A DNA stretch of 64,000 nucleotides. Origin: Eledone cirrhosa (taxonomy: Eukaryota). This document shows positions 46,961 to 64,000 of the stretch, piece by piece; the first letter of the stretch is position 1, and each line of letters begins with the position of its first letter. The DNA lies in NCBI GenBank assembly GCA_964016885.1, contig OZ024743.1:61690001-61754000 (forward strand), written 5' to 3'. The notes beneath the pieces were generated by a model that did not search any database, was not told where the DNA came from, and worked only from the letters and a program-made list of their open reading frames with translations. Position numbers and translations under genes: made by a program.

Positions 46961-49056
46961 CTTTATATATATATATATGTATATATATATGAGAATGGTC
47001 GACTATTTTATATATATATATATACAGATACACATTCACACTTATGTGTGTACATTTATGTCTATGAATATAGTCAGGTGCACACACTTTCATATAAGTA
47101 ACTACATCATTTTTATTTTCCAGTCCTGTTGATATTAAATTTCAAATACCGTATGTATGTTGTTTGTGTGTTGTGTGTGTGTGCGTGTGTGTGCGTGCGT
47201 GTGCGTGTGTGTGCGTGTGTGTGTGTGTATGTATGTGTGTGTATATATATATACATATATGGCGTGTGTGTGTGCGCGCGCGAGCGTATGTGTGCAGTAA
47301 ATTTACCAAATATTTCAATATGTGAGAATATATTTAATGTTTATAACATATATTAGATATGTTAAATCATTTTCTCTAGGTTCAAAATAATTATATAGAG
47401 AAGAGAATACTGTTGGAGGAAAAGGTTTTCAATATCACCCACATCGGTTTCCGTCTTGAAGAGACACGTCTGTCATAACTTTATTATTCTTTAACTTGAT
47501 TCAGTCATTAGAACCCACAGCGTTGTGGGGTCGCTATTATTTTATCGAACATATTGAGGATCCCAGGACTTAATTTGTCAAGTATGCCACTTGTTTTAGC
47601 GATTTGTTTGTTGTTGTTTTGTTTTTTTTGTTTTTTTTTTGTTGTTTTTTTTGTAGGGGCGGCGGAGGGGCCGAACCACTAAGTTACAGGATATAAACAC
47701 AGCCACAAATGCAAGTATATACCCGGGGAAGGGGGTACACGCTCATATACATGCTTATATACACACACTCATACACACGCTCATATACACACACTCATAC
47801 ACTCACACACAGGCTCGTACAAACGCACGCATCCACGCACATACACAAACACATACACACACATGCACACGGACACATACAACGGACTTTTGCAGTTTCT
47901 GTCTAACAAAGTTTCTTCTAATAAAGCATTGGTCAATCCGTGGCTATAGAAGATATTTTTCTAAAGTTTCATACAGCAGTGACTAAACCCACCGCCATAT
48001 TTGTGGGATGCAAACTCCTTAACCATAAGCCATACTTTCACTTTTTAATATTAATTCATTTAAATGTTAATGTCATTACGTGGATCAAAGATTCTTTGTG
48101 TATATCTTGAGTCCCGCCGACCACCGAATTTCATGCCACGTTCTGTAAAATTGGCATAACAGAACGGTTGGCCATTAGGCTTGCTTATTTCCTTAAAGAC
48201 AGAAGTAATCTGGTGGCAACGAACGGTTCCATATCTGAAACGTCTTCTATAATAAGGTCATGACCATGAGAACTTACCTGGTCTTACAATGGAATGGCCA
48301 GGAGGTTGTTGAGACATACAGCGTATATTTGGTCATTTCGACTTTCCCTCGCCACGTCTGAATACAACCGATTTCCTCCAGAGAGATGGGTTGAAGAGGT
48401 TAAGAAGAAGAATCGACCCTAATACTGAATGCGTACTTTATTTATCGACCTCGAAAGGATAAAATGCAGTATGAGGAAAGCTATTTCACTAGCTTTTATG
48501 AATGGAGTAACACAAAGATCCCATTTGATGCTATTTCTGTTGCATATACACATACAAAACGTATACTTAACCATAGCCAGCAACTATCAAAGCATTTGCT
48601 CTTTTTTCTCTTACTAGTCTCGGAGAACCTGGGAAATAAGTTATAAAAAATGTGCTTAATAATTTGTTTAAATTAGGAATGTAAATGTCAATCCAGATGC
48701 AGTTATTTTGATATGGCATAGTCGTTAAAGCCTCAAATGCCGACGAGGTCCACTTTGCCTTTCATCTTTTCGGCGTGCTGGTATAGTCCTCTCTGCACCC
48801 AGCTGTCACATTCTGGATTTTCTGCTGGATCATGTTCAAGAGAGTATTTATTTCTGCTCGCAACCGCATGGCCATCTACAACCATTAGTGAAAGAATGGT
48901 GCATTCTACTAAATCATACTCAGTTGCAGATAAAGACTAGATTTGTTTGTAATTTTTGCAATGATTTCCATGCACTCACTCCACATTTTACGGCAATTAC
49001 TATTTGTGAGATATTATAGACCTCATTTGAGTGTATATTGCAAGTAGTTTAATAAT

Positions 49057-49273
49057 GGTTTCTGATTTAGACACAAGGCCAACGTTTTTGGGGGAGGGGA
49101 AAGTCAATTAAATCGACCCTAATGCGTTGCTGCTACTTTATTTTATCGAACCCGTATGGAAGAAAGGCAAATCTAACTTCGGTGGGAGTTGTACTCAGAA
49201 CGTAAAGGGATGTAACTCTGTGCCGCGAAGCATGGGGTCCGACCCTCTACCGATACTTCCAATTCCCCGCCCT
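49057..49273 (-). mobile_element. ATT-tailed SINE
   Basis: Same head and core as 52033. 3' end ccttgtgtctaaatcagaaaccattatt. Flanked by the 13-bp repeat gtagtttaataat. Confidence 0.85.
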
Positions 49274-49289
49274 CATGTAGTTTAATAAT

Positions 49290-49477
49290 TGACTCTACTT
49301 TTGGCACAAGGCCAGCAATTACCCCAGTGCATTACTGGAACTTTTATTTTATCGAACCCGTAAGGATGAAAGACTAAGTTAACTTCGGCGGGATTTTAAC
49401 TGAGAACGTAAAGGGCCATAACTCTATGTTTCAAAGCATGGTGTCTGACGCTCTACCGATACTGCCAATCCACCGCC
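49290..49477 (-). mobile_element. ATT-tailed SINE inserted at the same target as its neighbour
   Basis: Flanked by catgtagtttaataat on both sides (49274-49289 and 49478-49493). Confidence 0.85.
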
Positions 49478-63200: not shown

Positions 63201-63672
63201 AGCTTTGCCAGTTCGGGATAAACTCTACAGGCATGGAGGTGCCGTCAGCCGGGCATGTCCGAGATGCGCGCAGGGCGACGAAACCGTCCTGCACGCACTC
63301 GTCCAGTGTCCGAGCATTGCTGACTTGTGGGTTTATGTCGAACACCTGCTGTCACGTGTAGGACGGATCCAGCTATCAGCTGAGTCCATCGTGAGGATTG
63401 CCCCGCCCCCTTCCTTTAGCCTGGAAGGGCAGGCAGTTTTTATCTGTCTGGTGGCCATGGCGAAAGAGATAGTATGGTGGACACGTTTGAAAGGGCTGAA
63501 GACGAGCACTTACCTCTTCGGTGATGCCCTGATTAACTTTTTCAAATTTCATTTGAAAAGGAAAATCAGGGTAGAGAGGGAAGTGCTCTCTTCCCAGCAT
63601 TTCGTTGAAAGATGGGTGAGAGAAGCAAGTATGGCCCGAATGAATGGGCCTTCTCTGAGTATGTGTCTGTAA
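60252..63672 (+). CDS. ORF2: APE endonuclease, reverse transcriptase and zf-RVT, with one frameshift near 62966
   Basis: GSINARGL, AISET, GDWN, YLDR and TDH; SPGLDGLPYE, LDQSKAFDRVDH, VRQGCPLS and YADD; CPRC...H...C. One extra T (gctttgg versus gcttgg in copy 1). Confidence 0.92.
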
Positions 63673-63954
63673 ATTAAAGGTGTAAAACTGGGAGAGGGCA
63701 CTTGCCCTGGTGGTCAGGGCCACTGTGGTCTTTTAATGGGCTTTCTCCACAAATGTCCCTTGGAAGTCTCCCCCCTATTGGGGAATTTTTCTTTGTTATT
63801 TTATTTCAACCTCTGTTTTTTTACACGCAGAAATGCCCATTTGTACCGTCCTGTATTGTCCTGTACTGTCCTTAATGTCTACTTTATGTGAACCCTTGTG
63901 GTTAATAAAGAAAACATTATTATTATTATTATTATTATTATTATTATTATTATT

Positions 63955-64000
63955 GGCGACCTACGTAGGAAATCGTATTATCGTGAGCTCCACAAATGTT
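63955..64000 (+). mobile_element. 5' end of Tx1/L1 copy 3
   Basis: ggcgacctacgtaggaaatcgtattatcgtgagctcc matches the sequence from 58018 onward, with 2 mismatches in 46 nt. Confidence 0.9.

What the first reader, a model, noticed from the sequence alone, without database searches (positions are those of the whole stretch)
49044..64000. Candidate ATT-specific LINE/SINE pair: the SINE shares the Tx1 element's 3' signature
Seen: the LINE copies end CCTTGTG-gccaataa-AGAAAtC-(ATT)n and CCTTGTG-gttaataa-AGAAAaC-(ATT)n. The SINEs end CCTTGTG-cctaaagt-AGAAAc-a-ATT (52033; also 21287), CCTTGTG-tctaaatc-AGAAAcC-ATT (49057) and CCTcGTG-cctatata-AGAAAcC-ATT (52228). The same two motifs, the same 8-nt spacer and the same tail are present in both. 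Known: SINEs borrow their 3' ends from the LINE that mobilises them, usually L2, CR1 or RTE, while L1-clade partners normally need only poly(A). Inference: this tRNA/Meta-like SINE is mobilised by a Tx1/L1-clade enzyme through a minimal cis signal of about 22 nt. I do not recall such a pairing being described.
Basis: partly seen in the sequence, partly recalled or inferred. Interest (0 to 1): 0.82.

Follow-up and report, generated by a model that had tools for sequence, protein, structure and literature searches.

The report
Octopod SINE shares Tx1-LINE 3' signal
In this probably octopus-family DNA, a very abundant short jumping element and a neighbouring L1-type (Tx1-like) long element end in the same short sequence signature and sit in the same ATT-rich sites, so the long element likely copies the short one; a shared end signal of this kind is known from maize and algae, but I found no report of it for an animal Tx1 element.

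Summary
The motif is real. CCTTGTG-N8-AGAAA (up to 1 mismatch) occurs 6 times in the window against 0.25 expected, each time at a 3' end: 2 LINE copies and 4 of 5 tRNA-type SINEs; the fifth reads AGAGT. The spacer shares only its length (2-3 of 8 letters), and there is no homology upstream.

The LINE is L1-group (APE endonuclease, RT, zinc motif, CCHC ORF1), probably Tx1. SINEs and LINEs form one head-to-tail chain joined by ATT tracts, and two SINEs carry 15-nt target duplications that begin with ATTATTA. The 'tail' is therefore largely the target.

New here: the heptamer could form a small C-CUUGU-G hairpin. It recurs in the LINE 5'UTR, which matches the SINE end better (19 of 28) than the LINE 3' ends do (15-16 of 28).

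Tx1 mobilisation is the best reading (about 0.55). No genome was held, so Dong/R4 (TAA-targeting, abundant in octopus), CR1 and most RTE ends are untested. 'Meta-like' is unconfirmed. Precedents exist: SINEU/Tx1-Mar and maize ZmSINE2/L1. Verdict: new variant of a known kind.

The parts
21286..21465 (+). tRNA-type SINE copy with 3' signature at 21444-21465, flanked by a 21-nt direct repeat in TATAT-rich DNA (duplication length uncertain inside a repeat)
49057..49274 (-). SINE copy of the longer subfamily (extra about 29 nt before the tail); signature at 49078-49057
   Evidence: the extra segment appears as a loose end in 21,119 reads of run X21
49290..49478 (-).
49042..49493 (-). Three copies of a 15-nt sequence beginning ATTATTA (49493-49479, 49289-49275, 49056-49042; one mismatch in the last) that sandwich the two SINEs; likely target duplications from sequential insertion
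52033..52219 (+). SINE copy with A box and B box, preceded by an ATT/GTT tract and followed by ATTATTA
52227..52395 (+). SINE copy lacking the B box (16-nt deletion), signature CCTCGTG-N8-AGAAA, then (ATT)4 directly before LINE copy 1
52408..57993 (+). LINE copy 1, decayed (many stops and frameshifts), 79% identical to copy 2 over 4.2 kb; signature at 57972-57993, then (ATT)8
52540..52566 (+). Predicted hairpin in the LINE1 5'UTR (10-bp stem, loop containing CCTTTTG), at the same place before the start codon as in LINE2
   Evidence: z -3.3; 1 of 200 shuffles as stable
58018..63915 (+). LINE copy 2, near intact: ORF1 from 58227 (one frame change; CCHC knuckle at 59275) and ORF2 60252-63672 (APE endonuclease, RT, zf-RVT; one frame change); signature at 63894-63915, then (ATT)13
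58162..58189 (+). LINE2 5'UTR copy of the SINE-type sequence GGCCTTGTGCC, predicted to fold with a CUUGU loop, followed by an ATT-like tract
   Evidence: the fold alone is not better than shuffles (z -0.3)
63955..64000 (+). Likely start of a third LINE copy (44 of 46 identical to 58018-58063), cut by the window end

Best explanation
This Tx1-like LINE family likely supplies the endonuclease and reverse transcriptase that copy the tRNA-type SINE into ATT-rich sites, probably recognising a short 3' signature that both elements share. Proposed steps: (1) The SINE is transcribed by Pol III (A and B boxes are seen; transcription is inferred). (2) ORF2p would bind the 3' end, a predicted small hairpin with a CUUGU loop closed by C-G, followed by a fixed-length A-rich linker ending AGAAA (sequence is shown; structure and binding are inferred). 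(3) The APE domain would nick the strand opposite an ATTATT tract, and the RNA's AUU end would pair with the freed primer for target-primed reverse transcription (inferred from established non-LTR biology). (4) A staggered second nick gives duplications of about 15-21 nt that regenerate the target (duplications are seen). Later SINEs and LINEs therefore land next to earlier ones in the same orientation, which builds the chain SINE-SINE-LINE-LINE-LINE.
For: Signature at 2 of 2 LINE ends and, with up to 1 mismatch, 4 of 5 SINE ends, at an identical distance from the ATT tract. Fixed-register null 6e-6. All 8 element 5' ends (5 SINE, 3 LINE) have ATT-type repeats within 8 nt upstream in the same orientation, though the chains make them non-independent. 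Three 15-nt copies beginning ATTATTA surround two SINEs only 78% alike; Kojima reports the same sandwich pattern for Tx1-driven SINEU-3 (PMC4494074, passages). In other runs, loose ends behind the SINE end read as ATT repeats in 1,510 contigs (X1) and 2,052 contigs (X8), with agreement about 0.4. The two pairs next to the closing C-G both form in 7 of 9 element sites versus 1 of 7 unrelated CCTTGTG sites, with C-G/A-U in LINE2 against G-C/G-C in the SINE. An RTE-like 3' end and two Penelope-like ends printed lack the motif. ORF2 is closer to a Tx1-named protein (305 bits) than to human L1 ORF2p (182 bits) or R2 (55-74 bits) (different databases). ORF1 has a CCHC knuckle.
Against: Only 12 fixed letters are shared. 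The spacer is at chance level and nothing upstream is homologous, whereas published partner tails share 35-61 nt in bivalves (PMC11481361, passages) and about 50-100 nt in plants and algae (PMC3747384). AGAAA in the LINE overlaps AATAAA and may be kept for polyadenylation. The hairpin is weak: the SINE end folds no better than shuffles (z +0.45), LINE1's best fold uses another register, and the SINE at 52374 does not fold. The SINE end is more like the LINE2 5'UTR (19 of 28) than the LINE 3' ends (15 and 16 of 28). A Penelope-like fragment without the motif also ends at (ATT)6. Dong/R4 targets (TAA)n in molluscs (PMC7998251 and PMC3812793, passages) and has more recent insertions than L1-Tx1 in O. 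vulgaris (1,129 versus 421; PMC13282606, Table 1); its 3' end was not available. Only two LINE ends were seen.
Confidence: 0.55

Rival explanations
1. Another LINE not present in the window, most plausibly a TAA/ATT-targeting Dong/R4 family, or an RTE or CR1 family, is the main partner. The Tx1 element shares the target and signature through convergence or sequence exchange.
For: Dong targets (TAA)n in most insects, molluscs and cnidarians (PMC7998251, passage; PMC3812793). Dong-R4, CR1 and RTE are all recently active in O. vulgaris (PMC13282606). R4-clade SINE-like partners exist in Entamoeba (PMC3747384, Table 1). ATT adjacency is not exclusive to this LINE.
Against: The one RTE-like 3' end in the window ends in TGA-type repeats without the motif. 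(ATT)n on the sense strand is the reverse complement of (TAA)n; I recall Dong's tail as (TAA)n on its own sense strand, which is not checked. This rival must still explain the 12-letter match to the Tx1 end.
Confidence: 0.23
2. The Tx1 enzyme mobilises the SINE, but in a relaxed way: only the AUU end and the target matter, as with poly(A) for L1 or as proposed for SINEU. The heptamer is a relic of an old template switch between the SINE tail and the LINE ends (5'UTR and/or 3' end) and is no longer a signal.
For: The hairpin is weak or absent in several copies. The SINE tail resembles the LINE 5'UTR more than the LINE 3' end. LINEs insert directly into SINE tails (52396-52408), which favours capture. 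SINEU shares no 3' sequence with any LINE (PMC4494074).
Against: The heptamer and its exact 22-nt register are kept in LINE copies 79% alike and in SINEs 76-89% alike while the spacer letters drift, which suggests selection.
Confidence: 0.15
3. Coincidence: an A-rich poly(A) signal explains AGAAA, and CCTTGTG matches by chance in two families that both favour ATT tracts.
For: Post hoc motif choice. Seven unrelated CCTTGTG sites exist in the window. One non-element 22-mer (34091, - strand) outscores the LINE ends.
Against: CCTTGTG at a fixed offset has probability 3.7e-4 and the whole profile 6e-6. The 11-mer GGCCTTGTGCC occurs 4 times in the window: 3 SINE tails and the LINE2 5'UTR (about 1e-5 expected in 210 nt).
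Confidence: 0.07

Closest known systems
SINEU / Tx1-Mar of crocodilians (Kojima 2015, PMC4494074; abstract and passages read)
   Same: A SINE assigned to a Tx1-clade LINE by shared target preference; tandem SINEs sandwiching a target duplication.
   Different: SINEU has U1/U2 heads, poly(A) tails and a Mariner target, and no LINE was found sharing the SINEU-1 3' half. Here the head is tRNA-type, the target is ATT-rich, and a short 3' signature is shared.
ZmSINE2/ZmSINE3 with LINE1-1_ZM (maize) and SINEX-3_CR with L1-1_CR (Chlamydomonas) (Ohshima 2013, PMC3747384; passages and part 1 of the tables section read)
   Same: L1-clade LINE sharing a 3' end with a tRNA-SINE. In maize it is a hairpin with a conserved loop and 3' flank but a variable stem, the same architecture as predicted here.
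   Different: Plants and algae, not animals. The shared stretch is about 50-80 nt there versus 12 fixed letters in 22 nt here. Tails are poly(T) or poly(A). The review counts only 3 L1-tail SINEs and lists no Tx1 pair.
Microsatellite-targeting Tx1 families Kibi (TC)n, Koshi (TTC)n and crocodilian (TTCC)/(TTTC)n families (PMC4494074, PMC3812793; passages)
   Same: APE-type Tx1-clade LINEs inserted in simple repeats.
   Different: The target here is (ATT)n, which these passages list only for Dong (as TAA), and no SINE partner is given for them.
Molluscan HCD tRNA-SINEs (Meta, V, CORE, Deu) with CR1, CR1-Zenon, L2 and Nimb partners (PMC4824008, PMC4758252, PMC11481361; passages, one section, parts of one supplement)
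   Same: Molluscan tRNA-headed SINEs that borrow a LINE tail.
   Different: Tx1 is not named as a partner: 0 occurrences in two papers and 1 unrelated mention in the third. Shared tails are 35-61 nt. This SINE's body was not matched to Meta, V or CORE.

Membership tests
L1-group non-LTR retrotransposon | ORF2 with N-terminal APE endonuclease, RT and C-terminal Cys-rich motif | tested here: met
   PF03372, PF00078 and PF13966; best PDB hit is human L1 ORF2p, E 1e-52, versus R2 at E 5e-20
Tx1 clade | RT phylogeny groups with named Tx1 families | tested here: inconclusive
   The only hit with a family name is a Tx1 149 kDa protein (32% identical). The tree of 41 rows held no reference Tx1 or L1 families; the element forms its own supported group of 9 rows apart from that protein.
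Tx1 clade | ORF1 with a CCHC zinc knuckle (recalled feature) | tested here: met
   Found in LINE2 at 59275; no complete knuckle in decayed LINE1
Tx1 clade | Target sequence preference (Kojima's criterion: more than 20% of flanks) | tested here: inconclusive
   3 of 3 5' ends and 2 of 2 3' ends abut ATT repeats, but all are in one chain; no genome was held
tRNA-derived SINE | Pol III A box and B box in the head; under 700 nt; no internal T4 run | tested here: met
   A box in 5 of 5; B box in 4 of 5 with up to 1 mismatch; no T4 run; about 170-220 nt (box consensus recalled). ARAGORN and Rfam name no tRNA.
tRNA-derived SINE | Interspersed, multicopy, with target duplications | tested here: met
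   5 full copies and fragments in the window; by far the deepest bin in 4 of 4 runs; 15-nt and 21-nt duplications
MetaSINE | 66-bp Meta domain directly after the tRNA head | tested here: inconclusive
   Compared by eye with the BivaMeta-SINE1 rows of the supplement: one stretch of about 23 nt resembles one row, displaced by about 30 nt, and the rest differs. The Meta consensus and SepiaSINE2 are in figures not held.
Stringent SINE/LINE pair | Shared 3' sequence of tens of nucleotides | tested here: not met
   12 fixed letters in 22 nt; no upstream homology
Stringent SINE/LINE pair | Conserved 3' stem-loop with compensatory changes | tested here: inconclusive
   Both inner pairs form in 7 of 9 sites versus 1 of 7 controls, with changed pair types; folding z-scores of +0.45 (SINE), -1.4 and -2.1 (LINE ends)
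Stringent SINE/LINE pair | 3' sequence required for retrotransposition; best match among all LINEs of the genome | not testable with these tools
   Needs the genome and an assay; no genome was held

The most novel reading that the evidence does not exclude
An ATT-targeting animal Tx1 element carries the same CUUGU-loop hairpin at both ends of its RNA (5'UTR and 3' end) as a protein-binding signal, and one of the most abundant octopod SINE families parasitises it with a hybrid mimic: the 5'UTR-type stem at the 3'-end spacing. This would be stringent, two-ended RNA recognition in the animal L1 group, through the shortest shared SINE/LINE signal I know of.
Probability: 0.2. Interest if true: 0.75.

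Novelty: new variant of a known kind. Interest (0 to 1): 0.5.

Why it matters
SINEs make up about 11.6% of the O. vulgaris genome (PMC13282606), and my searches found no partner LINE named for them. If the pairing holds, it identifies the engine behind a major octopod SINE expansion and explains why these elements pile up in ATT tracts. It would also give an animal case for Ohshima's open question of whether L1-group elements were ancestrally 'stringent' and later relaxed to poly(A). A signal of only about 22 nt is easy to test by mutation. An ATT-specific APE retrotransposon with a minimal portable signal could interest targeted-insertion work. The concept itself (a SINE borrowing a LINE end; Tx1 driving a SINE) is not new.

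Tried and rejected
No whole genome was held, so no genome-wide consensus ends could be built.

Collection scans gave nothing usable. The signature pattern gave 0 loci in viral contigs and 6 in metagenome contigs, none with similarity to the window or to the six proteins then held, so chance. SINE-core patterns gave 0 in genome contigs and viral contigs. ORF2 or its relatives gave 0 confirmed loci.

The read lay-on could not test motif conservation: 40 of 1,420 variant rows and 24 of 13,138 loose-end rows were shown, and 57982-58025 was skipped as a repeat in X21. No RNA holder was listed among holders with a usable share; this is no evidence on expression.

Rfam gave only microsatellite-driven or sub-threshold hits, no ribozyme or tRNA. 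The tree could not settle the clade. Motif searches in two paper supplements found nothing; a third gave two unrelated mid-body hits. One supplementary file each of PMC4824008 and PMC4758252 was not searchable, and the SINEBase supplements were unavailable. These, Repbase and the Zenodo library of PMC13282606 could already hold this pair. Earlier-findings look-ups returned nothing on this system.

Considered and judged less likely: that 63955-64000 is a long target duplication (LINE1 and LINE2 5' regions align from the first bases); and that the two minus-strand SINEs arose by local duplication (they are 78% alike and of different subfamilies).
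Full report
SETTING. The window is AT-rich, microsatellite-dense animal DNA. The nearest named relative of the LINE ORF2 is an Argonauta hians protein at 59% identity, so the source is probably an octopod; this is an inference. No whole genome was held.

OBSERVATION. CCTTGTG-N8-AGAAA with up to one mismatch occurs 6 times (0.25 expected; 0 of 100 shuffles reach 6). Each hit is at a 3' end: LINE copies at 57972 and 63894, SINEs at 21444, 52198, 52374 and 49078(-). 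A fifth SINE at 49311(-) reads AGAGT. A profile from the five SINE 22-mers ranks the LINE ends 7th and 8th of 127,956 window 22-mers. One non-element site (34091, - strand) ranks above them. The fixed-register null is 6 in a million, or 3.7e-4 for the heptamer alone; both are post hoc. The match is narrow: the spacer is 2-3 of 8 identical between LINE and SINE, the 40 nt upstream are 6-15 of 40 identical, and in both LINEs the downstream block overlaps AATAAA, which none of the five SINEs has.

THE LINE. Copy 2 (58018-63915) has an ORF1 with a CCHC knuckle and an ORF2 with APE endonuclease, RT and zf-RVT, each with one frame change. Copy 1 (52408-57993) is decayed and 79% identical over 4.2 kb. 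A third copy probably starts at 63955 (44 of 46 identical). Among solved structures, human L1 ORF2p is closest. The only family-named hit of the 10 is a Tx1 protein. A tree of 41 relatives had no reference families and leaves the clade unproven. L1 group is shown; Tx1 is likely.

THE SINE. Five copies of about 170-220 nt are 76-89% alike, with an A box in 5 of 5, a B box in 4 of 5 and no internal T4 run. Its bin is by far the deepest in all four runs laid (depth is not a copy number). Against the bivalve Meta, V and CORE alignments seen in the supplement of PMC4824008 (compared by eye), only a stretch of about 23 nt resembles one Meta row, so 'Meta-like' is unconfirmed.

TARGETING. On the + strand the order is (TA)n, an ATT tract, SINE, ATTATTA, SINE, (ATT)4, LINE1, (ATT)8, LINE2, (ATT)13, LINE3. 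On the - strand, two SINEs of different subfamilies are sandwiched by three copies of a 15-mer that begins ATTATTA, and the 21286 copy has a 21-nt direct repeat. All 8 element 5' ends have ATT-type repeats just upstream, but they are not independent. Loose ends behind the SINE end read as ATT repeats in 1,510 (X1) and 2,052 (X8) contigs, with agreement about 0.4. The 'tail' is therefore largely regenerated target. This is the type of evidence Kojima used to assign SINEU to Tx1-Mar, including tandem SINEs around a duplication (PMC4494074). ATT adjacency is not exclusive: a Penelope-like fragment ends at (ATT)6 at 11548(-) without the motif.

STRUCTURE, AND A THIRD SITE. The heptamer reads as C, CUUGU, G, a possible pentaloop. 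The next two pairs both form in 7 of 9 element sites versus 1 of 7 unrelated heptamers, with C-G/A-U in LINE2 against G-C/G-C in the SINE. Only two or three independent lineages stand behind this. Folding support is mixed: z +0.45 for the SINE end, -1.4 and -2.1 for the LINE ends; LINE1 prefers another register and the 52374 SINE does not fold. GGCCTTGTGCC occurs 4 times in the window, in three SINE tails and at 58170. The SINE majority end matches that 5'UTR site at 19 of 28, against 15 and 16 for the LINE 3' ends. LINE1 has a strong hairpin at the equivalent place, with a CCTTTTG variant. This could be a two-ended protein-binding signal, or a relic of sequence capture between SINE tails and LINE ends.

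MECHANISM. Most likely (0.55) this LINE family's ORF2p binds the shared 3' signature, nicks opposite ATT tracts, primes on the AUU end and leaves duplications that renew the target. The sequences, domains, duplications and chain are shown; binding, folding and nicking are inferred. Rivals: another LINE, chiefly Dong/R4, which targets (TAA)n in molluscs (PMC7998251, PMC3812793) and has 1,129 recent insertions in O. vulgaris against 421 for L1-Tx1 (PMC13282606) (0.23); Tx1 mobilisation with the motif as a relic (0.15); coincidence (0.07). The only in-window controls, one RTE-like end and two Penelope-like ends, lack the motif.

LITERATURE. Read: PMC4494074 (abstract, passages); PMC3747384 (passages, part 1 of the tables section); PMC4824008 (passages, section 9, supplement passages and part 3); PMC4758252, PMC11481361, PMC9115989, PMC3531059, PMC5804259, PMC3812793, PMC4640811, PMC8967140, PMC7998251 (passages); PMC13282606 (parts 1-2 of 3). 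A Tx1-driven SINE is published (SINEU: poly(A) tails, and no LINE found sharing the SINEU-1 3' half). L1-clade tail sharing is published for maize and Chlamydomonas, counted as 3 SINEs among over 800 L1 families. Ten searches found no tRNA-SINE sharing a 3' sequence with an animal Tx1 element, and no ATT-targeting Tx1. Repbase, the SINEBase sequences, Ohshima and Okada 1994, Kojima and Fujiwara 2004 and the O. vulgaris repeat library were not seen and may hold it.

VERDICT. A real, non-random shared signature with co-targeting. The partnership is probable but unproven. New variant of a known kind; interest 0.5.

Noticed in passing
window 3011-5368(+), with direct repeat 2637-2990 / 5818-6166: Intact 785-aa ORF that looks Penelope-like (label from recalled motifs; Pfam gave no hit), flanked by a 354-nt repeat at 98% identity; probably a young element.
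   Followed up: partly
window 23764-25263(+), 20174-20563(+), 11722-11550(-), 697-512(-): Further Penelope-like ORF and fragments; the 11550 fragment ends at (ATT)6 without the signature.
   Followed up: partly
window 1500-2550: RTE-like fragment in two opposite orientations joined near 2040 (5'-inversion-like); 3' end in TGA-type repeats. A second RT fragment of similar look lies at 26340-27000(-).
   Followed up: partly
P0046 cluster: A 33%-identical relative in Patella caerulea occurs as 11 listed members with near-consecutive locus numbers, suggesting a tandem array like the one here.
   Followed up: no
window 34091-34070(-): 22-mer scoring above the LINE ends on the SINE-end profile, not followed by ATT and with no SINE body found; unexplained, possibly chance.
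   Followed up: partly
window 38860-38930(-), 40500-40570(-), 48430-48470(-), 48733-48776(+): Old fragments of the same SINE core without a recognisable signature.
   Followed up: no
window 42891-44155; 13930-15146; 31985-32451; 34603-35277: A 99.8% tandem duplication of about 615-nt period, and several long imperfect inverted repeats (MITE-like).
   Followed up: no
window 33420-33660(-) and 50330-50465: Pieces that look like a second tRNA-type SINE family; the first begins right after ATTATTA at 33663(-).
   Followed up: no
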